Shown here: positions 35,907-50,790 of the stretch, piece by piece
Numbering within the stretch: the stretch's first letter is position 1
How the letters are laid out: the number at the start of each line of letters is the position of its first letter
Source of the DNA: Rickettsia typhi
GTDB taxonomy: Bacteria; Pseudomonadota; Alphaproteobacteria; Rickettsiales; UBA1997
NCBI GenBank assembly: GCA_945862535.1
Contig: CAMAYG010000007.1
Span: 16,864 to 80,863 of the forward strand
Direction of reading: 5' to 3'
DNA: 64,000 bases
The notes under the pieces: generated by a model
What the model was told of the DNA's origin: nothing
Database searches by the model: none
What the model saw: only the letters and a program-made list of their open reading frames with translations
Program-made: the position numbers and the translations under genes

Positions 35907-36764
35907 TTAGCGAACAATATATTTCTTATTGGAATTTGCTACTTGATTTGTAACCCTATTTCTAGGAGTGTCCTCGACAATCTGCAAGTTAACTTGTTGA
36001 TTACTAACTGCTTCATTATCATTACTAAATTGAGGCAATGCTACTGGTTGGCTAGGTGCTCCTGATTGGCTAGGTGGTTGAGGCAATGCTCCTGATTGGT
36101 TAGGTTGAGCACTTTCAACTCCCTGCGCTGCACCTGGCCTTTCTTTACAATATTTGACACATGTTGCTACTCCTACAATAACTGCTGAAAATGCCATAAT
36201 TCCTCCAACAGCTGCTGCACCGATAATTACATTCTTTATATTTTCCTTGGCTTCTAAATCTTTTTCGCTGTTAAAATTATTATCTCTATTAATCTTTACG
36301 AAATCACCGCCAACATCAAGAAACCAAGCCTTATCAATATCTGAGGTATTTTTTAAAGTAATAGTGTTATAAGATTTTTTTTGATTGTCTAATACTGCAA
36401 TAATCAAATCATTTCCTTTTTTAGCAATATTAAGATGTTCAAAATTAATGCCATTACCGCCACTAATTTTCATTGTTTTAGGGTCAAAATTCTCTATCAC
36501 TTGCGAATTTTCGCCCCAACCAAGATTGTATTTTTGAGGCTCGGCTATGACTTGAGATTCTTCTAAGTTTTCTTCTTTGCTAATTATATGGCTACTCCAG
36601 TCATATGAATCTTGAGACGGAAGCGATGTTAACGTTGTATTATTTAGTATTATCTTATCCTGAATAGCGCTTGGTGCTATTGAGAAGTCTGTTTGAGAGT
36701 TATTTGCATTGGCTTTGTTAAGTGCAGTAGCTGCCCCTAACGTTAGTAATATCAATTTTTTCAT
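35907..36764 (-). CDS. Signal-peptide protein with one W..ENFDP..module, a TM anchor and a Pro/Gln-rich tail (paralog of the island proteins)
   Basis: LGWGENSQVIENFDPKTMKISGGNGINFEHLNIAKKGNDLIIAVL matches the module in the 47572-50790 and 46020-47558 proteins. TM helix VIIGAAAVGGIMAFSAVIVGVATCV. Tail QPNQSGALPQPPSQSGAPSQP. Confidence 0.4.
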   Translation of the reverse strand: MKKLILLTLGAATALNKANANNSQTDFSIAPSAIQDKIILNNTTLTSLPSQDSYDWSSHIISKEENLEESQVIAEPQKYNLGWGENSQVIENFDPKTMKISGGNGINFEHLNIAKKGNDLIIAVLDNQKKSYNTITLKNTSDIDKAWFLDVGGDFVKINRDNNFNSEKDLEAKENIKNVIIGAAAVGGIMAFSAVIVGVATCVKYCKERPGAAQGVESAQPNQSGALPQPPSQSGAPSQPVALPQFSNDNEAVSNQQVNLQIVEDTPRNRVTNQVANSNKKYIVR

Positions 36765-40561: not shown

Positions 40562-41377
40562 TTAAGAAGCTTGGCGAAACAATTTGCCCTTGATATCGTT
40601 AATTGTCAGATCTGCAAATTCTATCTGTGCTTGAGTAATTCTTTTTTGCACAATTCTGGTGATGGTTTTTTCACTAATTGCTGTGCCGTAATTATTGTTA
40701 GAAAAAGAGATAAATATCGATTCTAGCTTTGTAATATCTAGGTTCTTGCGACCTAGACCTTGAGTAATAAGATCGATATATTTTATTAGTAAAGTTTTAA
40801 GATTTTTCTTAATGGTAATAGATTTTATCTTATCCTTTTTGCCCTTACTCGAAATAAATATTTTAGTAACTCCTTCGTTTTTTGATATATCAAAAATCGT
40901 TAATCTTACTAATTGCGAAGCGGAAAGATTGTGATATAATATCAGATTAAGGACGATTAAATCTCGCAAATCTTCAGCACCTGCAACAGCGAAATTAACC
41001 AGCTTCAACAACTCTCCATGAGCTATATCTTTGTAATTATCTACAACTAGGCCTCTTTGCTTCGTTAGATGAGGTAAATTTATGTTAATTTCACTATCGA
41101 TAATATTGGTGGCAATTCCCCAAGTTAGAACCTGCTGTAATGCCGAAGAATAGGAAATAAAAGTGTTGTAACTATAGATTTTTTCAAGAAAGTTGTAGTA
41201 ATATAGCGAACCTTCGCAACAATCTTCAAATTTGCTACGATGAACCTCGATATAATGAAGAAAATGATTGATTGCTATTAAATATAGCCTGCTGGTGCTT
41301 TTAGGAAAGTCGCTATTCTTTGTAAATTCTTCTATTATTTTTTGTAAATTCAAAATTTCTCGATCGATTTTAAGCAT
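40562..41377 (-). CDS. Tyrosine-recombinase (Xer/phage-integrase)-like protein, truncated and lacking catalytic residues
   Basis: Collinear with XerD through LRDLIVLNLILYHNLSASQLVRLTIFDIS...SSKGKKDKIKSITI...LFISFS. The first catalytic Arg is replaced (NLSAS), the HxxR box reads NDIKG, and the protein ends before the catalytic Tyr. Start placed at ATG 41377, which overlaps the hlyD stop (ATGCTTAA). Confidence 0.6.
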   Translation of the reverse strand: MLKIDREILNLQKIIEEFTKNSDFPKSTSRLYLIAINHFLHYIEVHRSKFEDCCEGSLYYYNFLEKIYSYNTFISYSSALQQVLTWGIATNIIDSEININLPHLTKQRGLVVDNYKDIAHGELLKLVNFAVAGAEDLRDLIVLNLILYHNLSASQLVRLTIFDISKNEGVTKIFISSKGKKDKIKSITIKKNLKTLLIKYIDLITQGLGRKNLDITKLESIFISFSNNNYGTAISEKTITRIVQKRITQAQIEFADLTINDIKGKLFRQAS

Positions 41378-42671
41378 CGCGAAACGACTTGTTAATTTGT
41401 TGTAATAAAGGCTCAAACAATATTGTTGCAAAGCTCTTCTTACCAACAACAATAAATGCTTCAACCTGCATGCCAGGATATAAGGTAAAATTATTAATTT
41501 TTGCCTTTTCTTTAGGATCTATCTTGATTCTAGCGATGTAATACATTCGACCATTTTGCTCTTTGGTAATATCTGGATCGAGATATATCAACTTTCCTGA
41601 TAGTTTTTTTGCAATTTTTGACTGTAAGGCACTAAAATTAATAATAACCGACATGTTGAGATGAACTACATCGATATCTTTTGGCTCAATTTTAACCTCA
41701 ACAAGAAGATCGTCACTTTGCGGAACGATATCGAGCAAATCTTGTCCAGATCTTAAGACCCCACCAATAGTAAAAACTTGTATATTGCGAATCATACCGC
41801 CAACAGGAGCAATAACCACAAGTCTTTGATTTACTTCTTTAGAGTTGTTATATTGTTTTTCTGCATCTTGCAACTGGCGAAGGTCTTCGCTGAGTTTATT
41901 TTGTAGGTTTCTACGATATTCAGTGTTAAGATTCTGGATTTTCATATTGATTTCAGTAATGCTTTGTGATGTTTTAGCTATTTCCGATTCATTGTTAATA
42001 AGGGCAATTTTTGCTTCTTGAGTTTGCTTGAGCGAATCTATCATTTTTTGCCTAGTGGTGTTGTTGCTTTTATACAATTCATCAATAGTTTTATTTTCTT
42101 TTTGTAGAAGACTAAGTTTTTCTTGCAAAATCACTCTTTGCTCTTGTAGATATATTTTTCTTTGCTTAGTGTCTGCGATTTGATTAGACAAGGCTCGCAG
42201 GTTTTCCTGGTGATTCATTTTTTCACTCTCTGCTATTGACATCTGTAGTTCGATTATCTTTTCTGGATATTCCTTGATTAGTGATTTGAGGTCTATATTG
42301 GAGTTGTTAATTTGACTTTTTATTCTTTCGACTTCCACCTTAAGATTTTCTAGCTGATATTTATTTGCTTTCAGGTTTTCAGAGCCTTGAACTTCTGAAA
42401 GCCTAATTAGTTCTTGACCCTGCTTGACAATATCGCCATTTTTTACCAGAATTTCCTTAACTATACCACCTTCAAGATGTTGCACAGTTTTTTTATTAAA
42501 GTCGATTACCACCTGACCGGGAGCGACCGCAGCGGTGTTTATTTTAAAAAAGAATAAACAAAATACTATAACAAAAACACAAAGAAAAACTGTGAGCGAA
42601 GCTTTTCGTAGATATTTATTTATGATTTGCCATTCTTTGGCAATGACCTGTTCTGTGCTCTGATTTGACAT
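41370..42671 (-). CDS. Type I secretion membrane fusion protein (HlyD family)
   Basis: N-terminal TM helix, APGQVVIDFNKKTVQHLEGGIVKEILVKNGDIVKQGQELIRL (lipoyl-like), a long coiled coil, VIAPVGGMI, and a C-terminal beta domain. Confidence 0.85.
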   Translation of the reverse strand: MSNQSTEQVIAKEWQIINKYLRKASLTVFLCVFVIVFCLFFFKINTAAVAPGQVVIDFNKKTVQHLEGGIVKEILVKNGDIVKQGQELIRLSEVQGSENLKANKYQLENLKVEVERIKSQINNSNIDLKSLIKEYPEKIIELQMSIAESEKMNHQENLRALSNQIADTKQRKIYLQEQRVILQEKLSLLQKENKTIDELYKSNNTTRQKMIDSLKQTQEAKIALINNESEIAKTSQSITEINMKIQNLNTEYRRNLQNKLSEDLRQLQDAEKQYNNSKEVNQRLVVIAPVGGMIRNIQVFTIGGVLRSGQDLLDIVPQSDDLLVEVKIEPKDIDVVHLNMSVIINFSALQSKIAKKLSGKLIYLDPDITKEQNGRMYYIARIKIDPKEKAKINNFTLYPGMQVEAFIVVGKKSFATILFEPLLQQINKSFRDA

Positions 42672-42688: not shown

Positions 42689-44323
42689 TTAGTGTTTTAT
42701 TAAGCCATTCTCTAAATAAAACACCTTATCGGATATTTTTAACAATTCAAGGCTTTTTCCAGACATTATTGTCGTTACTCCTTGCTTTCTTAGATCTAAA
42801 AGCAATTTTGATATTACCAAAACCTCTTGTTCGCCTTCAACATCAACATCATCTAATATCAAGATCTTTGGATCGCTATAAATTGTACTCGCAAAAGCAA
42901 TTCTTCTGGAAAGACTAAAGCCAAGATTGCAACCATTATCGATAATTTTAGTATTATAGCCGCTCTCAAAACTATTAATCAAATTATGACAATTAAGCTT
43001 TTGACTAGCCTTAATAACATTATCGATATTTGCTTTCTGATCTAGTCTAGCAATAGATTCTCTAATGTTATCACCTACTAATTTCTGATCTATGATTTGA
43101 GGCAAATAGCCAATTATCTTGCCCAAGCTTTCCTTGCTCACTAAAGATAAATCTATTTGATCGTATTTCACCATGCCAGATATTGGCTTATAAATTCCCG
43201 CAAGCAATTTTAGCATTGTGCTCTTGCCAGACATTGATGAGCCAGTTATAAGGTTAATAGTTGCTGAGGCTATTTCAATATTGGCGCCTTTGAGTATTGG
43301 CTTTTTAGTTTCTGGGTAAATAAATATCAACCTCTCGCCACTAATTTTTCCACTAAATTTAGAAATCTCTATCGGCTTTTTACTTTCATGGGTGACTTTA
43401 ATATTTTTAACCAAACTACGATAGGCAGATCTTGCCTCGGGCAAATTTGCAAAAGCTGTCGAGAATTTAGCAAATAGAGTGAGAGCTTTACTACTTAGAA
43501 TTGAAGAGGCAATTATTGCCCCTGTGGTTAGCTGATCTTGTAAAATTAAATATCCACAAAGGCCCGTGGTTAAGATCTGCAAGATGGTTCTTGTTGCATT
43601 GGTTGCTTCGTTGTATCTGTTTTGAGTTGCCTTTTGATCTAATTTATTCAGCCCTTCTTCCTGTTTAAAAAAACTAAATCTTTGCAACAAATTGCCAATT
43701 ATACCATTTGCCTGAGCTACTCCACCAAGTTTTTTTATTGATTCGATCTGATTATTAGCAAGATAATTATATTTATAAGCAACTTTCTGACTAGATTTAG
43801 ACAGGATTTTACCCAATTCGGTTAAAGCAAAAATTAGAAAACCACCAAAAATAGTTAAAAACCCAACAAAAGGATGGAGAAAAAACAAGAATAAGAGATA
43901 AATTAACACAAATGGCCCCTCAATCAAACCCACCAGAAACGACACAATAAAATTATGCAGTTTTTTAAAATATTCGACATTGTCGGCAACGATATTTTCA
44001 TTCTGGTAAATCACATTCTGACTAACCGTTTCGTTTGCAACCATAGAAACCAATAGTCCAGAAAATATGTAGTCGATACGGTTAATAACTTTTTGTTTTA
44101 TTTTTTCTAAAATAGTGCTAAAAATAATTGCAACAACAATAACAAAAGTCAATACCAATAAGGTTTCGAGGCTACGAGAACCGATAACTTTATCCATCAC
44201 TTGCAAAGAATACATTGGCACCGCAAGTTGCAAAATATGTGAGACACCGCTAATTAAGGCAATAGGGACGATGGTTTTCTTGATGCGAATTAGGTTATTT
44301 TCTATTAAATGTTGCTTATCCAT
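42689..44323 (-). CDS. Type I secretion ABC transporter (PrtD/HasD-like, no C39 domain) with degenerate nucleotide-binding motifs
   Basis: 544 aa with a six-TM region plus an NBD. Walker A GSSMSGKST and Q-loop GYLPQ are retained. The signature reads LGFSLSRR instead of LSGGQ, Walker B is ILILDD-V (no catalytic Glu), and the H-loop position reads MSGK (no His). Confidence 0.8.
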   Translation of the reverse strand: MDKQHLIENNLIRIKKTIVPIALISGVSHILQLAVPMYSLQVMDKVIGSRSLETLLVLTFVIVVAIIFSTILEKIKQKVINRIDYIFSGLLVSMVANETVSQNVIYQNENIVADNVEYFKKLHNFIVSFLVGLIEGPFVLIYLLFLFFLHPFVGFLTIFGGFLIFALTELGKILSKSSQKVAYKYNYLANNQIESIKKLGGVAQANGIIGNLLQRFSFFKQEEGLNKLDQKATQNRYNEATNATRTILQILTTGLCGYLILQDQLTTGAIIASSILSSKALTLFAKFSTAFANLPEARSAYRSLVKNIKVTHESKKPIEISKFSGKISGERLIFIYPETKKPILKGANIEIASATINLITGSSMSGKSTMLKLLAGIYKPISGMVKYDQIDLSLVSKESLGKIIGYLPQIIDQKLVGDNIRESIARLDQKANIDNVIKASQKLNCHNLINSFESGYNTKIIDNGCNLGFSLSRRIAFASTIYSDPKILILDDVDVEGEQEVLVISKLLLDLRKQGVTTIMSGKSLELLKISDKVFYLENGLIKH

Positions 44324-44348: not shown

Positions 44349-45995
44349 TTACAGCTGATCGATATTCGCTTCACCAAGAAGCTCGAGAATATTATAAAAA
44401 CCAATTGCGAGATCTGTGTTGACATTGATTAATTCATCGCTCTTTGAATAGAGATTATTGATAAAATACAATAATTCAAAGTTATCTTTAAGTCCATTGC
44501 TAAATTCAATAAAAGCATTGTCATATATCTTGCTTGCAACCTGATAATTTCTTTTTGAAGCAATTAGCAATTTGCGATTAATATTAAAACGAGCAATCTC
44601 CGACTGAATCGCAGACAAAACACCAAGAGAATCTTCGCGGTATTTTGCCATAACAGCACGATAATCGGCATTAGTCGAGTTAAGATTATATTTATCTTGC
44701 CAAGAATCAAAGACAGGCAAAGAAACCTTAATATTTATCGATCTTTCGTTTTGATTGTAATTTTGCTGAGCATTTGCCTGAGTGTCATATTGATTTTTTG
44801 CTAATGAAGCATCGAAATCAACTCTAGGCATAAAGTTAGATTTGGCAATATTTCTTAATGATTTTTTTAGCGAGACTTCGGTTTTTGACTGCTTAATTCT
44901 TGGTGAGCTTTTAATGTGAAGCTCGATATCTTGGCTTATTTTTGCTACTTCCGTTTCAAAAGATGATAATTTATTTTCAATAAAATTAGCTATTTCTTCC
45001 CGATTTTCCAATGCTAAATAAGTGTCTTGTTGCTGATTTAGCATTTGCCTTAAACGATATTTTTCTTGGAATATTTGCTGATTTATTCTTTCTTGCTTTA
45101 TTATTGCATTGTTTAAGCTTACCTCGACTTGTAAAAAATCGCTCTTGGTTATTTCGTATTTCGACAATTTTTGGCGACTATTTTCTAGATGTTGCTGATA
45201 AACTAGAAGCTCTTGCTTGGCATTTTTAAGCAATTCATTTAGCCTAAGAAAATTAAGATAAGACTTTACAACACCAACAATTAGAGACTGCTGTTGGGCT
45301 TTGAAATCGTATTTAGCAATTTCTAGGCGACTAGATTCTGCACTTAAGCGATTTAGACCCGCAAAACCTTCAAATAGATTTTGTCTTAGTAGTATTTGTC
45401 TCGTGTTTTCATTGGTGGTAAATTTATCGATATTATTCGCAGAAGATTTTTTATAGCTATTGTCCGATGACTGATATTCTAAGCTAATTTTTGGCATCAT
45501 TGCCGAAACTTTTGCATCTCGTTGCCAGTTCTGCGAACTTACTAATTCTTCCTTTTGTTTAAGGGCATTATTATTTGCCAATGCAACACTGATTAGGTTT
45601 TTTAAACTATTGCTAATGTTTTCTGAAGAATTGGCTCTTGCTGAATCTTGTTTTGATAAATCATTTTTTTCTTCGCCAACAACTATTGCAAGACTATTAA
45701 CGGCCTTGAGGTTGGGAGAAGGAGCAAGATTTATCCTATTAATATTTGCATCTTTTTGCTTTTCTTTGCTGTTGTAATTATTAGCTTTATTAGCTTTATT
45801 GACAATTTTATAACTTGAAACTTTGGGCAGGGCAATCTTATTATTTACTTTTTTACCCTCTGCAAGAACAGGAAATTGTTTATTAGCATTCTCTGCCCTA
45901 GTGTCAAGATTTAGCACAAATGCCAAAATAAACGAAAATAAGAATAATATTTTGCTTTTTATGTTAAAATTATGCAAGCATTGTTTAATAAGCAT
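44349..45995 (-). CDS. TolC-family outer membrane efflux protein
   Basis: Signal peptide, a ~120-aa low-complexity Asn/Lys-rich extension, then a duplicated coiled-coil/beta pattern typical of TolC (e.g. NNNALKQKEE...QNWQRDAK). Confidence 0.75.
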   Translation of the reverse strand: MLIKQCLHNFNIKSKILFLFSFILAFVLNLDTRAENANKQFPVLAEGKKVNNKIALPKVSSYKIVNKANKANNYNSKEKQKDANINRINLAPSPNLKAVNSLAIVVGEEKNDLSKQDSARANSSENISNSLKNLISVALANNNALKQKEELVSSQNWQRDAKVSAMMPKISLEYQSSDNSYKKSSANNIDKFTTNENTRQILLRQNLFEGFAGLNRLSAESSRLEIAKYDFKAQQQSLIVGVVKSYLNFLRLNELLKNAKQELLVYQQHLENSRQKLSKYEITKSDFLQVEVSLNNAIIKQERINQQIFQEKYRLRQMLNQQQDTYLALENREEIANFIENKLSSFETEVAKISQDIELHIKSSPRIKQSKTEVSLKKSLRNIAKSNFMPRVDFDASLAKNQYDTQANAQQNYNQNERSINIKVSLPVFDSWQDKYNLNSTNADYRAVMAKYREDSLGVLSAIQSEIARFNINRKLLIASKRNYQVASKIYDNAFIEFSNGLKDNFELLYFINNLYSKSDELINVNTDLAIGFYNILELLGEANIDQL

Positions 45996-46019: not shown

Positions 46020-47558
46020 TTAGTTTTCAAGATAATCAACTTGATCGTCGTTTGAGTAATCGCTGTAATCGGCATCGTCGCTATAATAATTATCTGGAAT
46101 ATCGTCGCTGAATTGAGCTTTTTTTAAATTTTCTTGCTCTATATAATTAACTTCTTGCACTATTTCGTAGTCCTGAACTTCTGTATTTTGTTGATATGAA
46201 CTTAGCTGACTTACTTCCTTAACGGCAATATCATAATCAACAAGATACTCAATTTTAAAAATATCTGACCTAGTCGGATTGTCCCAGTCGATAAAATTTG
46301 TGATATTTAACTGCGAAACCGCAATGCCAGAAAAAAACAACGATAAAAAGTTTGGATTGGTGTAATATTCTATCAAAACACCAGACTCACCATTAACAAA
46401 GTCGTTTTTAATAAGAAATGTTCCAGGGTAATAGGTATTTGGGTCGAAGTCAAAATCTATTTTATCAATATTGGGGTTAAAATTTTTGATGATAAATTTT
46501 GATTCTTGATATTTTATCAAATCAACATCTTTATTATTATATCCACTACTTCTATCGATATAATAAGTTTTGCTGAAAGCTCTAGTAACATCGTTTTGTG
46601 ACTCTGGAGCTGGTTCTGGCTCTTGATATGAGGCTTTTACCTTGTCGATTTCTAAAACTATCCGACTGGCTTCTTCGTTATAAGAACTTTGATTAAATTC
46701 GTAAGAATCTTGCTCGGGTTGCTGATAGATATTTGCAAGTTTTGTTGCCGATTCTGAATTACTGAATCTCTCAATGCCTTCTTTGGAGGATGGCACAGAG
46801 GACGATTTAGCATCTTGATTGCTAATATCTTGGCTCTGCGATATGGCAATATTAACTATCGCCTTATTAGTGAATTTTTCTGGGGTTGAATTTTGCTCTT
46901 TTGCAGGGCTTGATAGTTCGCCAGAGTTTTTATTTACAGCGGTCTTTTTATCTTTTATTTTATTATTAGCAAAATTTACTGAATTTTCTTTATTGCTAGA
47001 GATTAAATGATTGTCTTTTACTAGGTTCTTGCTACTTAATTCTGGTAATATTTGCTCCTTCTCTCTTGGTTTTTGGTATAATAATTGTTGACGATTGTAA
47101 TCATCGACATCCAAAACCTCGGCACCTTCTGTATTTGATAATTCATTATCTTGATTACTTATGATTTTGACATTATTTTGCTTTGACGCCTTAGGATCTT
47201 TTAGCTCTCGATGTTCTTTGGCATTTAATTCTTTTATCGCTACATCCTGATTAAAAACTCCAACCATCACGGCAAGACCAGCTGTTAGGTCGTTTGCCGA
47301 TTGCGAACTAGACTTCTCTTTTTCTTCTTGAGATTTACGATTTTGTATTTTGATATTATGAGCTTCGCTACTAATTTGATTTGCGATATTTTGAGAATCG
47401 GAGCTTTGACTTGTCTCTATTGCCAGTAATTCTGCATTTATTAGCAGATCGGAATCGAGAACTGAATTGTTATTGCTATTGTTATTATCGCGATCTTGCG
47501 ATAAAGAATTTTTACTCTTATTAACCGCAAGATCGGATTTATTGTCATCTATCGTCAC
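46020..47558 (-). CDS. Acidic low-complexity protein with one C-terminal NFNP..DKID module; putative T1SS passenger
   Basis: GTG start 14 nt after the upstream stop. FIIKNFNPNIDKIDFDFDP...SGIAVSQLNITNF matches the module of the upstream gene. The C-terminus is strongly acidic (DDADYSDYSNDDQVDYLEN). Confidence 0.4.
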   Translation of the reverse strand: MTIDDNKSDLAVNKSKNSLSQDRDNNNSNNNSVLDSDLLINAELLAIETSQSSDSQNIANQISSEAHNIKIQNRKSQEEKEKSSSQSANDLTAGLAVMVGVFNQDVAIKELNAKEHRELKDPKASKQNNVKIISNQDNELSNTEGAEVLDVDDYNRQQLLYQKPREKEQILPELSSKNLVKDNHLISSNKENSVNFANNKIKDKKTAVNKNSGELSSPAKEQNSTPEKFTNKAIVNIAISQSQDISNQDAKSSSVPSSKEGIERFSNSESATKLANIYQQPEQDSYEFNQSSYNEEASRIVLEIDKVKASYQEPEPAPESQNDVTRAFSKTYYIDRSSGYNNKDVDLIKYQESKFIIKNFNPNIDKIDFDFDPNTYYPGTFLIKNDFVNGESGVLIEYYTNPNFLSLFFSGIAVSQLNITNFIDWDNPTRSDIFKIEYLVDYDIAVKEVSQLSSYQQNTEVQDYEIVQEVNYIEQENLKKAQFSDDIPDNYYSDDADYSDYSNDDQVDYLEN

Positions 47559-47571
47559 CTAATTATATATT

Positions 47572-50500
47572 TTATTGATATTCATCTTGAGATTCTTGAT
47601 AGTCGTGTTGGATAATACTATCGGCAGAATTGTCATCTTCTAGGTTGCCAATAGCCACTTCGTAGCCAGATTGACTTCCTTCAACCTCTGCAACAAGAGC
47701 TGTGTCAATATCGACATCATTAGCAATCTCGCTATCAGATGAAGAAGGTGTAAGGTTGATGCTTTTTGAATCTACCACCGCTTTATCATATCCTGTAATA
47801 TTTTTAAAATTACCAATTTCGCCACCAAAATTTAGGCTTGTCAGCTGGTCGGCACTAACTCCTGTTAATAGGACCTTCACAAATTGCGAACCTTCGCTAT
47901 AACGAACATCTTGCAAAGATAGGCCTTCGTTAGTTTGTACTATTTTATAGACTTGGGCAAAGAATGGCAATTCCAAAACATCTTTTGCCGGATCAAATTT
48001 GATAATATAATCTGGCTCAAGCTTATTATTGCTGTCGTAGCCTTTATATTGAGGCAGTTTAAATACTTTGCCACCCTGACTAGATGAAACATTGCTTTCG
48101 CTTTTAATCGACATAAAATCTTGTTCTTTTGTTGTTGTGTTTATTTTGTTGCTATCGATATTCGCATTATTGTTATCGGTCGTGCTGCTAATGTCTTTAT
48201 TTTCAACCGCCTCAGGTAATTTTTCTTTGCCAATATTAGAATCGATAGCAGTGTGAGAATCGACAGCATCAGAACTGTTGCTAATAACCGATTCTATTGC
48301 TTCGACATATGAATGCGACATTTCGTCGCGAACAAAACTTCCGCCTGGTTGGAAACCGCTAAAATTATCGAGACCAATATCATTTGCAGATATGCCCTTA
48401 AGAATAATACCGTTTTCTGCATTTTCAAGCACAATCTTTGCATTATTATTTCCTAAATCAATAACCTTTATCTGACTCAAATTCATCCAGCCATTAGCAC
48501 TAATAGAATTAGTTGCGATATTAAAGTTTTCGACAACAGTATCTTTATTGTACCACCACTCAACTTTAATAACTTCATTTTTATTAATTGTGCTGTTATT
48601 GCTATTAACATTATTTTGCGGGTTGGTTGGCTGATTCTGGACAATATTTTGTTCGACTGCAGGCTTAATCTCTTCAGCTATTGGTTTAGTCTCTTCGACA
48701 ATCTCCCGCCCCTTGATAATTTTTATATATTCAATCTCTTCTTGAAACTTTACTGGAGTATTAAAAACAATATCGGGCAAATCTTGTTCGATAACATCGG
48801 GAAAAATAAAATAATCGCTTGTATCATTATTTGCCGTAATAATTTGGCTATTGTTAGCAGTTTTACCATCGCTAAATTTTCCAGCAAAACCAAAAAAGTT
48901 ATTTTGCCCTAATGCCGAAGCCTTAACTCCCGCTAGCACAATACCAAAATCTTTTTGTGAGCCGTAGCAGATCATCGCTCCCTCTGCGGTATCTTTAACG
49001 GTAATTTGCGATAAATCCATACCACCAGTACTAGCCCCGATAGAATCGGTGTCAGGATCAAAGTTTTCAATCGGAGTCTGCTTCGACCAATAGCTCCAAG
49101 TCATTTTTGCTTCGATATTAACCTGGCCCATAGCCGAGAAAAAGCCAGTTACCCCAGTAAACATTTTTTGGCTAATCTGACTTACAGAAACACCTTTTAA
49201 CTCAATATATGCATGCATCCCGCCATCTTCACCAATAGAGCCAACCTTAACACTATTGCCGTCTTGAACAACTCTTAGATCTTTAAAGTCTATACCGCTG
49301 GTCCCTTGTATTTTATCGAACTGAGGATTGAAATTTTCAACTACATCCTTACCGCTCCAGCCAATTTTATAAAAATTAGAATTAGCAGTAATTTTATTAA
49401 GATTTATAGATAGTCGATCTTTGGTCACTCCTTCAAATTCTAATTCATAATTACCAACTTTTAAAGTAGCATTGCCATTTTTTTCGCCAATAATTTTCTC
49501 TTTTGCTATATCGCCAAAATTTCTGAAGACAATGTTATCTTTATTAAAATCGAAATCTTTTAACAAAGTTGTTCCACCACCTTTGCCATCGTTTTCTATG
49601 ATAACAGAGTCGTTGCCCTCGCCAGTAACAATAGAGTTATTTCCAGAGCTAGGAGTAAATTCTTCCGAATATTTATCACCAACTAAGATATCATTAACAT
49701 TCGAGCCAAAGATAGTATTATGACCACCAAAATCGTAAAGATATTTCAAATTCGAAGTGCCAGTTTCATCAACTCGAAAAATGCCAGTCAAGAGAGTATC
49801 TGCCGCTCCCCAAGCTCCAGTTAAGTGAGCCATTGCTAATATTCCCGACATCGTAACTTTTACCGTTGTAGTAACTTCAGCTTCTGTGGTTTTTAAAGTG
49901 CCATTATAAGATTCCTTGCCAAGAGTAATTTTGATATTCAGATCTTTCGCTTTCAGCTCGGCAATTTGTTCATCTGTATAAGAAGACTTAAAGCTATAAG
50001 GATATTCCTTATTTAGGATATCGCCAAGGCTTTTGTCATTTTTTGTAAAAATATCTTTGATAACATTGAGATTAAATTTCATTACTTCGCGAATTGCCAT
50101 TTCTTGCTTTGCTGGGTCGGTTAAATCGTCAAAATTATTGATACCATATTTTCCAGTGAAGCTACCCTTCCATTGATTCGAGTTAGTAATGACAAATTTT
50201 GCATTGGCCTGATTTGTTACCTCTAATTTATCATAACTAGCGTTCCACTTCATAAATTTTTCGGTTTCGCCCGGGCCAAATGCCGTGCCATCGGTCCACA
50301 TATAATATTTAGGCAGACTTGCTCCAGAGCCATTTTTAAGACCGCTATCTTGCGGTGTATATATTCCCGCATCAATCAAAACAGCTTCTCCAAGCTGATA
50401 ACCAACAAAACCCCAAGGATTCACCACTTTATATTGAATCGACTCAACAACTTTAGTTGCTTGCTCTAGTAATTCTGGCTTAATATTTTGGTTGCTATCA

Positions 50501-50790
50501 AGAGCAGTGCTTTTAACTTTAAGATTTTCATCGAAAATTCCTAGTTTTTTCATTTCGTTTTCGAAAATTCTAGCGGTATGTAATTTAGTAAAATATTTTT
50601 GAATTGTTCCCTCTTCAGGAATAATTTTGTTTTGATATAATAAGCCATTTTCATCGAGCTTGGCATATTTTATCACCGCTCCTTGATTATAATTGGTAAT
50701 ATACCATTGAGTTAGAGCGGGATTGGTTCCGGATTCAAAAGCCCTCAAGCTAGTGAGAAAGCTTTGGATATTAGTATTAGGGTTTTTCAT
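47572..50790 (-). CDS. Large (1072 aa) putative T1SS substrate: lysozyme-like N-terminal domain, two degenerate RTX-like nonapeptides, five W..ENF[ND]P modules, acidic C-terminus
   Basis: No N-terminal signal peptide. N-terminal motifs are LRAFESG, GFVGYQLGEAVLIDAGIY and GILAMAHLTGAWGA. GSNVNDILVGD and TGEGNDSVII are RTX-like. Five repeated modules are quoted in the findings. First gene of the T1SS operon. Confidence 0.5.
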   Translation of the reverse strand: MKNPNTNIQSFLTSLRAFESGTNPALTQWYITNYNQGAVIKYAKLDENGLLYQNKIIPEEGTIQKYFTKLHTARIFENEMKKLGIFDENLKVKSTALDSNQNIKPELLEQATKVVESIQYKVVNPWGFVGYQLGEAVLIDAGIYTPQDSGLKNGSGASLPKYYMWTDGTAFGPGETEKFMKWNASYDKLEVTNQANAKFVITNSNQWKGSFTGKYGINNFDDLTDPAKQEMAIREVMKFNLNVIKDIFTKNDKSLGDILNKEYPYSFKSSYTDEQIAELKAKDLNIKITLGKESYNGTLKTTEAEVTTTVKVTMSGILAMAHLTGAWGAADTLLTGIFRVDETGTSNLKYLYDFGGHNTIFGSNVNDILVGDKYSEEFTPSSGNNSIVTGEGNDSVIIENDGKGGGTTLLKDFDFNKDNIVFRNFGDIAKEKIIGEKNGNATLKVGNYELEFEGVTKDRLSINLNKITANSNFYKIGWSGKDVVENFNPQFDKIQGTSGIDFKDLRVVQDGNSVKVGSIGEDGGMHAYIELKGVSVSQISQKMFTGVTGFFSAMGQVNIEAKMTWSYWSKQTPIENFDPDTDSIGASTGGMDLSQITVKDTAEGAMICYGSQKDFGIVLAGVKASALGQNNFFGFAGKFSDGKTANNSQIITANNDTSDYFIFPDVIEQDLPDIVFNTPVKFQEEIEYIKIIKGREIVEETKPIAEEIKPAVEQNIVQNQPTNPQNNVNSNNSTINKNEVIKVEWWYNKDTVVENFNIATNSISANGWMNLSQIKVIDLGNNNAKIVLENAENGIILKGISANDIGLDNFSGFQPGGSFVRDEMSHSYVEAIESVISNSSDAVDSHTAIDSNIGKEKLPEAVENKDISSTTDNNNANIDSNKINTTTKEQDFMSIKSESNVSSSQGGKVFKLPQYKGYDSNNKLEPDYIIKFDPAKDVLELPFFAQVYKIVQTNEGLSLQDVRYSEGSQFVKVLLTGVSADQLTSLNFGGEIGNFKNITGYDKAVVDSKSINLTPSSSDSEIANDVDIDTALVAEVEGSQSGYEVAIGNLEDDNSADSIIQHDYQESQDEYQ

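What the first reader, a model, noticed from the sequence alone, without database searches (positions are those of the whole stretch)
46020..50790. A repeated ~70-aa W..ENF[ND]P..D.I module family in two adjacent giant acidic proteins heading the T1SS operon
The 1072-aa protein holds five related units: LLKDFDFNKDNIVF...ELEFEGV; GWSGKDVVENFNPQFDKIQGTSGIDFKDLRVV...IELKGVSVSQISQKMF; WSYWSKQTPIENFDPDTDSIGASTGGMDLSQITV...IVLAGVKASALGQNNF; WWYNKDTVVENFNIATNSISANGWMNLSQIKV...IILKGISANDIGLDNF; and IIKFDPAKDVLELP...VLLTGVSADQLTSLNF. The 512-aa protein ends with one unit (IIKNFNPNIDKIDFDF...FSGIAVSQLNITNF). The motif echoes the DF..G.DKIDLS element found near the C-termini of many T1SS passengers. Canonical GGxGxD nonapeptides, however, are reduced to two degenerate copies (GSNVNDILVGD and TGEGNDSVII, about 49601-49725). 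Both proteins lack signal peptides and have very acidic C-termini, as expected for T1SS cargo. I do not recognise the module as a named domain.
Basis: partly seen in the sequence, partly recalled or inferred. Interest (0 to 1): 0.65.

Follow-up and report, generated by a model that had tools for sequence, protein, structure and literature searches.

The report
RTX "C-cap" modules multiplied without RTX repeats
The repeated ~65-residue unit is real, but it is the known "C-cap" that normally closes the calcium-binding RTX beta-roll of type I secreted proteins; here it is copied five times in one protein, once in its neighbour and once in a third protein, almost without the calcium-binding repeats.

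Summary
ORF A (47572..50790, minus strand, 1072 aa) has five related ~60-70-aa units. ORF B (46020..47558, minus strand, 512 aa) has one weaker copy. Both head a tightly packed operon with TolC-like, PrtD-type ABC and HlyD genes.

The unit matches no Pfam or NCBIfam model, but it is not a new fold. Profiles and AlphaFold/Foldseek place it with the "C-cap" that ends RTX beta-rolls:
- the last 67 residues of family I.3 lipases, including the VTLVG secretion motif;
- the C-terminal half of AlgE R-modules;
- the post-RTX part of serralysins.

A unit profile finds 2771 representative proteins. Most of the best hits are classical RTX giants in which the unit directly follows GGxGxD runs. About 16% of the top hits carry it without any RTX repeats, as here.

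Residues 1-640 of A belong to a widespread uncharacterised family. One member, IGB42_04172 of Andreprevotia ripae, is among the most abundant secreted proteins on chitin. Those homologues have Sec leaders, cysteines and a CBM5/12 module. A has none of these; it has two extra caps and an acidic tail instead.

Two things were missed. A seventh copy sits on a Sec-exported, membrane-anchored protein (35907..36764). The T1SS ABC protein has degenerate ATPase motifs.

Verdict: a new variant of a known kind, of moderate interest.

The parts
49711..50790 (-). Protein A residues 1-360: N-terminal 'FESG' domain (motifs FESG, WGFVGYQLGE, TMSGILAxAHLxGAWG, DExGTS). Function uncharacterised; no signal peptide.
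   Evidence: 31-34% identity to ~725-aa 'carbohydrate-binding proteins'. Invariant residues are listed. AF2 pLDDT is mostly 80-95. No Pfam or PDB sequence match. Weak hints of a phage tail-lysozyme or peptidoglycan-binding fold. hhalign against hen lysozyme was negative.
49585..49710 (-). Protein A residues 361-402: degenerate RTX remnant (GSNVNDILVGD / SSGNNSIVT / TGEGNDSVII).
   Evidence: PF00353 reaches only 10-12.7 bits in A. 24 of 31 homologues hit PF00353; in those scanned individually the hit lies at the corresponding position. The family profile aligns this stretch plus unit A1 to MIS38 lipase residues 492-611, E about 1e-6.
49402..49584 (-). Unit A1 (residues 403-463): C-cap module directly after the RTX remnant.
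   Evidence: 14.3 bits with the non-window profile. The equivalent unit is found in every homologue.
49156..49362 (-). Unit A2 (residues 477-545).
   Evidence: 33.6 bits. z 10-12 against A3 and A4. The single-unit AF2 model has pLDDT 87.5. Foldseek top hits are MIS38 lipase, Serratia LipA and the AlgE4 R-module.
48892..49092 (-). Unit A3 (residues 567-633).
   Evidence: 34.3 bits. z 18 against A4.
48358..48555 (-). Unit A4 (residues 746-811), isolated between two low-complexity linkers.
   Evidence: 24.4 bits. 50% identical to the P0002 counterpart, while the flanking linkers are 19-27% identical.
47827..48012 (-). Unit A5 (residues 927-988), the last cap before the tail.
   Evidence: 16.6 bits. 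The 189-aa alignment that spans this unit is 54% identical in the fragment from the related MAG.
47572..47826 (-). Protein A acidic C-terminal tail (residues 989-1072, net charge -16) plus stop codon. Putative uncleaved T1SS signal region.
   Evidence: Composition. Poorly conserved (26% identical to P0002), which is usual for T1SS signals. Its function is inferred, not shown.
46509..47558 (-). Protein B residues 1-350: low-complexity, N/S/Q/K/E-rich, poorly conserved region.
   Evidence: Only a short SSSQS..GL.V.V patch is conserved with P0041.
46290..46505 (-). Unit B1 (residues 352-423): divergent C-cap module.
   Evidence: 11.7 bits with the non-window profile, aligned to positions 7-66; shuffles gave a 99th percentile of 3.7 bits. 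z 4.5-6 against A2, A3 and A5. This is the best-conserved part of B against P0041.
46020..46289 (-). Protein B acidic C-terminal tail (residues 424-512, net charge -18) plus stop codon.
   Evidence: The DDYYSDDADY motif is conserved in P0041.
44349..45995 (-). TolC-family outer-membrane protein.
   Evidence: PF02321 112.7 bits. TIGR01844 E 6.7e-34, below its curated cut-off.
42689..44323 (-). PrtD-type T1SS ABC permease/ATPase without an N-terminal C39 or CLD domain. The nucleotide-binding motifs are degenerate.
   Evidence: TIGR01842 339.8 bits against a cut-off of 510. Full-length match to Aquifex PrtD 5L22, E 4e-59. In that alignment LSGGQRQR is LGFSLSRR, ILDEPD is ILDDVD, and the H-loop SHR is GKS.
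41370..42671 (-). HlyD-family type I secretion adaptor.
   Evidence: TIGR01843 295.3 bits, above its cut-off of 208.65.
36300..36527 (-). Seventh module copy, in protein C (ORF 35907..36764, 285 aa). The protein has a Sec-type leader, one cap module, a transmembrane helix and a P/Q-rich tail.
   Evidence: 27.6 bits with profile A3 in a six-frame scan. BLASTP against A2 gives 31% identity over 87 aa, E 7e-9. Sequence. No Pfam match.

Best explanation
The ~65-residue unit is the C-cap module of RTX beta-rolls. This is the short beta-sheet segment (consensus GW.G...V.DF.p..D.I...g..f.dL.i.q.g....i......i.L.GV.a..L....F) that normally follows a run of GGxGxDxUx nonapeptides and shields the end of the roll. 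In lipases and proteases it carries the C-terminal secretion-signal region.

In this freshwater alphaproteobacterium (uncultured; nearest named AtpD relatives are Rickettsiales- and Pelagibacterales-labelled MAGs) the cap has been multiplied and separated from the calcium-binding repeats.

Protein A is built as follows:
- an uncharacterised N-terminal 'FESG' enzyme-like domain;
- a three-turn RTX remnant;
- three consecutive caps, separated by short (13-21-residue) spacers;
- two further caps on disordered linkers;
- an acidic tail.

Protein B is a disordered acidic protein that ends in one divergent cap and an acidic tail.

Shown: the units are real and under purifying selection. They are homologous in sequence profile and in predicted fold to the caps of family I.3 lipases, AlgE R-modules and serralysins. 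A and B have the hallmarks of T1SS cargo and sit in one operon with a PrtD-type T1SS.

Inferred:
- 'Last cap plus acidic tail' is the one feature A and B share, so it is the region recognised by the ABC/MFP complex.
- After C-terminus-first export the caps fold one after another outside the cell and act as folding nuclei that prevent back-sliding, as in the CyaA ratchet model. They also stiffen the stalk that carries the N-terminal domain.
- The ancestral Sec/CBM5/12 or T1SS state of the family was exchanged in this lineage: the leader, the cysteines and the CBM are absent, and caps plus a tail are present.
For: Reality of the units.

Homology to caps:
- The broadened unit profile hits AlgE6 R3 residues 82-157 (E 7e-6) and AlgE6 R2 (E 1.7e-5).
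- It hits MIS38 lipase residues 550-616 of 617, aligning ...SVTLVGV...LSADGIVI (E 5e-5), and serralysins (E 1e-3 to 0.03).
- The family profile hits the same lipase at residues 492-611, E about 1e-6.
- The single-unit AF2 model (pLDDT 87.5) has as best PDB matches MIS38 lipase (TM 0.66, probability 1.0), Serratia LipA (TM 0.59, probability 1.0) and the AlgE4 R-module (TM 0.56).
- The 660-residue model's significant hits are all RTX proteins.

Context in other proteins:
- The unit profile finds 2771 representatives.
- Of the 145 best hits, 122 contain GGxGxD motifs. In these, 546 of 642 units start within 25 residues of a nonapeptide.
- Pfam shows HemolysinCabind and Peptidase_M10_C in such hits.

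[quoted passage not shown] The VTLVG motif is described as involved in type I secretion in PMC7745013, citing Angkawidjaja & Kanaya 2006.

Cargo hallmarks. Operon.

Synteny: the order A-B followed by a further downstream ORF recurs on a contig of a second MAG; that short downstream ORF was not compared with TolC.

Contrast with homologues: 32 Gamma/Betaproteobacterial homologues have hydrophobic leaders and 4-8 Cys. A has no leader and one Cys.
Against: - Nothing shows secretion, calcium binding or recognition by the transporter.
- The same three caps occur in homologues that carry Sec signal peptides and have no T1SS genes within 10 kb.
- A single cap occurs on a Sec-exported membrane-anchored protein in this same window. 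The cap therefore cannot be, in itself, a T1SS determinant.
- The ABC protein lacks the canonical signature motif, the catalytic Glu and the H-loop His. This raises doubt about normal ATP-driven export.
- The tails of A and B do not end in the Asp-plus-hydrophobic motif typical of PrtD/LipB substrates.
- The Asp of the 'D.I' half-turn is replaced in A4 (by N) and in protein C (by M), so Ca2+ binding by the caps is uncertain.
- The match for B1 is weak.
Confidence: 0.6

Rival explanations
1. The caps are simply structural or ligand-binding modules with no role in secretion. They could be a rigid stalk, or a polysaccharide- or Ca-mineral-binding module like the AlgE R-modules. Only the extreme acidic tails would then matter for T1SS export.
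For: The modules are conserved in Sec-dependent CBM5/12 homologues that have no adjacent T1SS. One module sits on a signal-peptide/TM protein. The best sequence-level PDB match is the AlgE6 R-module. From my own knowledge, not checked here, AlgE R-modules are reported to bind alginate. The homologue IGB42_04172 is an abundant chitin-induced secreted protein (PMC8802321).
Against: The matching segment of family I.3 lipases is exactly the segment that carries the secretion motif. The one feature shared by A and B is a terminal cap plus tail. No binding data exist.
Confidence: 0.28
2. The T1SS operon is decaying or non-canonical, and A and B are not exported by it, because the ABC ATPase is catalytically dead.
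For: Against Aquifex PrtD the signature reads LGFSLSRR, Walker B and the catalytic residue read ILDDVD, and the H-loop reads GKS. The TIGR01842 and TIGR01844 scores are below their curated cut-offs.
Against: All five ORFs are intact and tightly packed. Walker A and the Q-loop are present. HlyD scores above its cut-off. The locus recurs in several lake metagenomes. The A-B gene order recurs in a second MAG.
Confidence: 0.1
3. The unit is a new domain unrelated to RTX proteins, and its resemblance to the DF..G.D.IDLS element is convergent.
For: No Pfam or NCBIfam hit for any unit. The first unit profile reached only E about 0.7 against PDB sequences.
Against: After one round of profile broadening the PDB hits are significant and full-length. 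Foldseek probability is 1.0 to the same proteins. There is a continuous series of intermediates in RTX giants sharing the same W/DF/D.I/L.GV/F signature.
Confidence: 0.03

Closest known systems
C-terminal segment (C-cap) of family I.3 lipases: Pseudomonas sp. MIS38 PML (2Z8X) and Serratia LipA (2QUA)
   Same: There is a full-length profile match to PML residues 550-616 (E 5e-5). The unit's I.L.GV aligns with the VTLVG motif and its ..L....F aligns with LSADGIVI. PML and LipA are the best structural matches of a single unit (TM 0.59-0.67). These lipases are T1SS substrates of an ABC protein without an N-terminal peptidase-like domain.
   Different: In the lipases there is one cap per beta-roll, each preceded by 5-8 canonical nonapeptides. 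The last cap ends the protein with an acid-plus-hydrophobic motif. Here there are five caps with only one degenerate RTX remnant, and an ~85-residue acidic tail follows the last cap.
R-modules of Azotobacter AlgE4/AlgE6 mannuronan C5-epimerases (2AGM, 2ML1-3)
   Same: The C-terminal half of the R-module (ILDFDPSQDRIDVS...VALEGDHAAALSADN) is the best sequence-level PDB match (E 7e-6). The modules are repeated within one secreted protein, downstream of an enzyme domain.
   Different: Each R-module keeps 4-7 nonapeptides in front of its cap. The N-terminal enzyme domain is unrelated.
Serralysin C-terminal domain (Pfam PF08548, InterPro IPR011049) and the C-terminal cap of CyaA RTX block V
   Same: The profile hits alkaline proteases at residues ~384-450 (E 1e-3 to 0.03). 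Foldseek hits serralysins and CyaA block V. PF08548 co-occurs with the unit in two of the eight unit-profile hits that were scanned against Pfam (P0047 and P0048). The capping and ratchet roles are described in PMC6891781.
   Different: PF08548 itself does not match A or B. The canonical Ca-binding turns are absent from units A2-A5 and from B1.
IGB42_04172 of Andreprevotia ripae and the ~725-aa 'carbohydrate-binding protein' family of chitinolytic Gamma/Betaproteobacteria
   Same: 31-34% identity over A residues 5-641: the same N-domain, RTX stretch and three caps. The homologue is experimentally among the most abundant secreted proteins on chitin (PMC8802321).
   Different: The homologues have Sec leaders, 4-8 Cys and a C-terminal CBM5/12, and no T1SS genes within 10 kb. 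A lacks all of these. It adds two caps on linkers plus an acidic tail, and it is T1SS-linked.

Membership tests
RTX protein / T1SS substrate | Tandem GGxGxDxUx nonapeptides (Pfam PF00353 at gathering score) | tested here: not met
   A scores 10.1-12.7 bits against a cut-off of 23. B has none. Only a three-turn remnant remains at A residues 362-398. 24 of 31 homologues do hit PF00353.
RTX protein / T1SS substrate | No N-terminal signal peptide, acidic pI, few or no cysteines | tested here: met
   pI 4.65 and 4.49; 1 and 0 Cys; no hydrophobic N-terminus.
RTX protein / T1SS substrate | Genetic linkage to ABC, MFP and OMP genes | tested here: met
   Gene order is A-B-TolC-ABC-HlyD with 13-25 bp gaps.
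RTX protein / T1SS substrate | Functional uncleaved C-terminal secretion signal; transporter-dependent export | not testable with these tools
   This needs a secretion assay. The tails are acidic but lack the Asp-plus-hydrophobic ending of PrtD/LipB substrates.
RTX beta-roll C-cap (lipase I.3, AlgE R-module, serralysin) | Sequence-profile similarity to the capping segment of solved T1SS substrates | tested here: met
   AlgE6 R3 E 7e-6, AlgE6 R2 E 1.7e-5, PML residues 550-616 E 5e-5, serralysins E 1e-3 to 0.03. The query profile contained 4 window units and 39 others.
RTX beta-roll C-cap (lipase I.3, AlgE R-module, serralysin) | Same fold | tested here: met
   Based on a predicted model only. 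Foldseek probability is 1.0 with TM 0.59-0.67 to PML and LipA, and TM 0.56 to AlgE4-R.
RTX beta-roll C-cap (lipase I.3, AlgE R-module, serralysin) | Position directly after a nonapeptide run, capping a beta-roll | tested here: not met
   True only for A1. Units A2-A5, B1 and the copy in protein C have no preceding nonapeptides. In RTX-rich hits, 546 of 642 units do follow a nonapeptide.
Pfam PF08548 Peptidase_M10_C | Match to the model | tested here: not met
   No hit for A, B or any of the 27 units at E up to 10.
IGB42_04172-like 'carbohydrate-binding protein' family | N-terminal FESG domain, RTX stretch and three caps | tested here: met
   E 5e-83 to 1e-71, 30-34% identity over residues 5-641.
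IGB42_04172-like 'carbohydrate-binding protein' family | Sec signal peptide and C-terminal CBM5/12 | tested here: not met
   A has no leader and no PF02839 match.
PrtD-type T1SS ABC exporter | Full-length similarity, no C39/CLD N-terminal domain | tested here: met
   Aquifex PrtD 5L22 matches over residues 4-543, E 4e-59. TIGR01842 is the best NCBIfam hit, though below its cut-off.
PrtD-type T1SS ABC exporter | Intact Walker B/catalytic Glu, LSGGQ signature and H-loop His | tested here: not met
   The sequences read LGFSLSRR, ILDDVD and GKS at the aligned positions.

The most novel reading that the evidence does not exclude
Cap modules freed from RTX repeats may be autonomous, Ca-independent folding and interaction units. 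This lineage would use them in two ways: as repeated export and anti-backsliding elements for a T1SS with a degenerate ATPase, and as a cap-to-cap docking pair. In the second role the Sec-exported, membrane-anchored single-cap protein C would retain or receive the secreted cap-bearing proteins A and B. In addition, the N-terminal FESG domain would be a new family of chitin- or cell-wall-active enzymes.
Probability: 0.1. Interest if true: 0.7.

Novelty: new variant of a known kind. Interest (0 to 1): 0.42.

Why it matters
The C-cap is usually treated as an appendage of the RTX beta-roll. Here, and in about one sixth of the best database hits, it occurs as a free-standing, repeated module without calcium-binding nonapeptides. 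It is also found on Sec-dependent proteins.

This gives a natural test of which part of the 'RTX plus signal' region is needed for folding, for ratcheting and for recognition by the transporter. It also shows that a very common module (at least 2771 protein clusters) has no Pfam model of its own.

The work further links a T1SS cargo of an uncultured freshwater alphaproteobacterium to an uncharacterised, widespread family. One member of that family is among the most abundant proteins in a chitin secretome, which makes the N-terminal domain a worthwhile target for enzymology.

Tried and rejected
- Self-BLASTP of A gave only the identity hit, so I used unit-by-unit alignments with shuffles instead.
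- Pfam, NCBIfam and per-unit Pfam scans found nothing for the units.
- The first narrow unit profile against PDB sequences gave only non-significant hits (E about 0.7). It became significant only after the profile was broadened with units from RTX proteins.
- N-domain: the profile found nothing in PDB sequences and the per-member Pfam scan found nothing. hhalign against hen lysozyme gave probability 0.1. The 'FESG = lysozyme or SLT catalytic motif' idea is therefore unsupported at sequence level. It rests only on weak BFVD and PHROG hints.
- No rRNA gene is present in the window for taxonomy. AtpD gives only uncultured alphaproteobacterial MAGs (labelled Rickettsiales, Pelagibacterales or unclassified) at ~86% identity.
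- The genome-contig scan found no close relative of the operon.
- Two metagenome-contig scans, one with the ABC protein and one with the B+P0041 alignment, found nothing.
- No RNA runs hold the gene.
- T1SS genes were sought next to 73 homologous loci and next to four RTX-free or leaderless relatives. None was found.
- Chance or low complexity as an explanation is rejected by the shuffles and by the higher conservation of units than of linkers.
Full report
**1. What is there**

The minus strand carries five tightly packed ORFs:
- A, 47572..50790, 1072 aa;
- B, 46020..47558, 512 aa;
- a TolC-family protein, 44349..45995;
- a 544-aa ABC permease/ATPase, 42689..44323;
- a HlyD-family adaptor, 41370..42671.

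The gaps between them are 13-25 bp. Upstream of A lies a 500-bp AT-rich spacer with a TTGACA-16-TAAGAT promoter-like site. HlyD passes its NCBIfam cut-off: TIGR01843 scores 295 bits against 208.65. The ABC protein is PrtD-type but below cut-off: TIGR01842 scores 339.8 bits against 510. TolC matches PF02321. Neither A nor B matches any Pfam or NCBIfam family.

The contig comes from lake-water metagenomes and recurs in several studies. AtpD is ~86% identical to MAGs labelled Rickettsiales, Pelagibacterales or Alphaproteobacteria. G+C content is about 35% throughout.

**2. The repeat is real**

In pairwise Smith-Waterman alignments against 300 shuffles:
- A2, A3 and A4 give z = 10-18;
- A5 and B1 give z = 4.5-6 against A2 and A3;
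- A1 gives only z = 3.1.

Independent profiles settle the weak copies. A profile built from homologues' units, without any window or near-window sequence, scores A1 6.9, A2 64, A3 35.6, A4 29.3, A5 12.6 and B1 4.5 bits. The maximum over 1000 shuffles was 6.6 bits. A second profile, built from 39 units taken mostly from unrelated RTX proteins, scores A1 14.3, A2 33.6, A3 34.3, A4 24.4, A5 16.6 and B1 11.7 bits. For B1 the shuffle 99th percentile was 3.7 bits, with one outlier at 13.5 in 1000.

Between A and its closest relative P0002 (66% identity overall), the units are 44-64% identical and the linkers and acidic tail 19-27%. The units are therefore the selected parts.

**3. What the unit is**

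An AF2 model of A residues 1-660, built with 30 homologues, has pLDDT 81 and pTM 0.76. Its only significant PDB matches are RTX proteins secreted by T1SS: Serratia LipA, Pseudomonas MIS38 lipase, CyaA RTX block V, AlgE6 R-modules and serralysins.

A model of a single unit has pLDDT 87.5. Its best matches are the same proteins:
- MIS38 lipase, TM 0.66, probability 1.0;
- LipA, TM 0.59, probability 1.0;
- AlgE4 R-module, TM 0.56.

At sequence level, the whole-family profile aligns the RTX remnant plus unit A1 to lipase residues 492-611, E about 1e-6. A unit profile broadened with units from other proteins gives full-length hits:
- AlgE6 R3 residues 82-157, E 7e-6;
- AlgE6 R2, E 1.7e-5;
- the last 67 residues of the MIS38 lipase (550-616 of 617), E 5e-5;
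- serralysins, E 1e-3 to 0.03.

In the lipase alignment the unit's I.L.GV lies on VTLVG, the five-residue motif reported to be involved in type I secretion (PMC7745013, citing Angkawidjaja & Kanaya 2006). The unit's final ..L....F lies on LSADGIVI(A), the extreme C-terminal motif.

The review PMC6891781 calls this element the 'C-cap'. It notes that LipA has two, one per beta-roll, that the cap includes the secretion signal, and that capping of the C-terminal edge is required for Ca-induced folding and for the Brownian-ratchet export of CyaA.

**4. How common it is**

The unit profile was searched against 1.84 billion representative proteins. It finds 2771 proteins at E <= 1e-3 and 452 at E <= 1e-10. 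Some have up to 17 copies in proteins of about 6800 aa.

Of the 145 best non-family hits, 122 contain GGxGxD motifs, often dozens of them. In these, 546 of 642 units begin within 25 residues of a nonapeptide. Pfam sees only HemolysinCabind in them, and sometimes Peptidase_M10_C. The cap therefore has no model of its own.

Twenty-three of the 145 have no GGxGxD at all. At least ten of these start with the same N-terminal FESG domain as A, have no leader and carry 0-1 Cys. RTX-free cap arrays attached to this domain are thus a recurrent architecture that, as far as I could find, has not been described.

**5. Protein A belongs to a larger family**

Residues 5-641 (N-domain, RTX remnant and A1-A3) are 30-34% identical to ~725-aa 'carbohydrate-binding proteins'. 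These occur in Andreprevotia, Rheinheimera, Pseudoalteromonas, Photobacterium, Vibrio, Aeromonas, Microbulbifer, Iodobacter and others: 73 loci in species-representative genomes.

Those homologues end in CBM5/12. They have hydrophobic leaders and 4-8 cysteines. Searching their 10-kb flanks with the window's transporter proteins gave only three weak ABC hits and one HlyD hit, each alone and at E between 1e-5 and 1e-15, and no TolC/ABC/HlyD set at any locus. [quoted passage not shown] A has no leader, one Cys and no CBM. Instead it has two extra caps on low-complexity linkers and an 84-residue tail with net charge -16.

The order A-B followed by a further downstream ORF recurs on a contig of a second MAG; that short ORF was not compared with TolC. 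B's only conserved part is its cap and tail.

The N-domain itself has no Pfam or PDB sequence relative. Three weak hints point to a cell-wall-active fold:
- BFVD 'peptidoglycan-binding' protein, probability 0.97;
- BFVD 'baseplate hub + tail lysozyme', probability 0.66;
- PHROG 27932, E 1.9e-4.

An hhalign test against hen lysozyme was negative.

**6. Mechanism**

Shown: module identity, purifying selection on the units, the hallmarks of T1SS cargo, and the operon context.

Inferred:
- The feature shared by A and B, a terminal cap plus an acidic tail, is the region presented to the PrtD-type transporter.
- After C-terminus-first export the caps fold sequentially. They act as folding nuclei and anti-backsliding stops, and as a stalk for the N-terminal domain.

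I put about 0.85 on the identity of the module, about 0.65 on A and B being cargo of this T1SS, and about 0.35-0.4 on a secretion or ratchet role for the internal caps.

The main rival is that the caps are structural or ligand-binding modules irrelevant to export. It is supported by their presence in Sec-dependent homologues and in protein C.

**7. Cautions and extras**

The ABC protein aligns end to end with Aquifex PrtD (5L22, E 4e-59). In that alignment it reads LGFSLSRR for LSGGQRQR, ILDDVD for ILDEPD, and GKS for the H-loop SHR. A homodimer would then have two degenerate ATP sites.

A six-frame scan with the unit profile found a seventh copy in ORF 35907..36764, at 27.6 bits and 31% identical to A2 over 87 aa. 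That protein has a Sec-type leader, a transmembrane helix and a P/Q-rich tail. The cap is therefore not in itself a T1SS determinant.

**8. Verdict**

The 'unnamed module' is the known RTX C-cap, here in an unusual RTX-poor, multiplied form. It is attached to a widespread uncharacterised enzyme-like domain that has switched secretion route. This is a new variant of a known kind, of moderate interest.

Noticed in passing
window 35907..36764 (minus strand): A 285-aa ORF ('protein C'). It has a Sec-type signal peptide (MKKLILLTLGAATALNKANA) and one cap module very like A2 (YNLGWGENSQVIENFDPKTMKISGG...). A transmembrane helix (VIIGAAAVGGIMAFSAVIVGVATCV) and a P/Q-rich tail follow. This is a seventh copy of the module, on a protein that is not a T1SS substrate. 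No Pfam match.
   Followed up: partly
window 42689..44323 (minus strand): The T1SS ABC protein has degenerate nucleotide-binding motifs relative to Aquifex PrtD. The signature LSGGQRQR reads LGFSLSRR, the Walker B/catalytic stretch ILDE reads ILDD, and the H-loop His is absent (GKS). Walker A and the Q-loop are intact.
   Followed up: partly
window 49711..50790 (minus strand); also P0049, P0053, P0060, P0062, P0065, P0066, P0069, P0107, P0122, P0138: The N-terminal 'FESG' domain of A is a widespread uncharacterised family. It heads many RTX-free cap arrays that lack leaders and cysteines. P0002 carries two copies. Invariant residues include E19, S20, G21, N124, W126, Q132, E135, H322, D341 and E342.
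   Followed up: partly
window 40562..41464 (minus strand): A phage-integrase/Xer-like ORF (PF00589, 26.8 bits, just under the cut-off). It lies immediately downstream of HlyD and, with its longest start, overlaps the end of HlyD. It might mark the operon as part of a mobile island, although G+C content is not deviant.
   Followed up: no
L078 12118..20828 and L079/L080 (loci of the leaderless homologues P0035 and P0036): The homologue sits next to a conserved cluster: a ROK regulator, a peptidase M20, two periplasmic binding proteins, a permease, an alanine-racemase-like YhfX, an ABC ATPase and a SIS-domain protein. The cluster looks like amino-sugar or muropeptide uptake and catabolism.
   Followed up: no
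L002 2623..4251 against window 44349..45995: A strain variant from a second sample encodes an identical protein B but a TolC of 542 aa instead of 548 aa.
   Followed up: no
window 58611..59669 (plus strand): The ORF downstream of atpC has not been identified. It carries a short in-frame tandem duplication (NLTAENLTAENLT).
   Followed up: no
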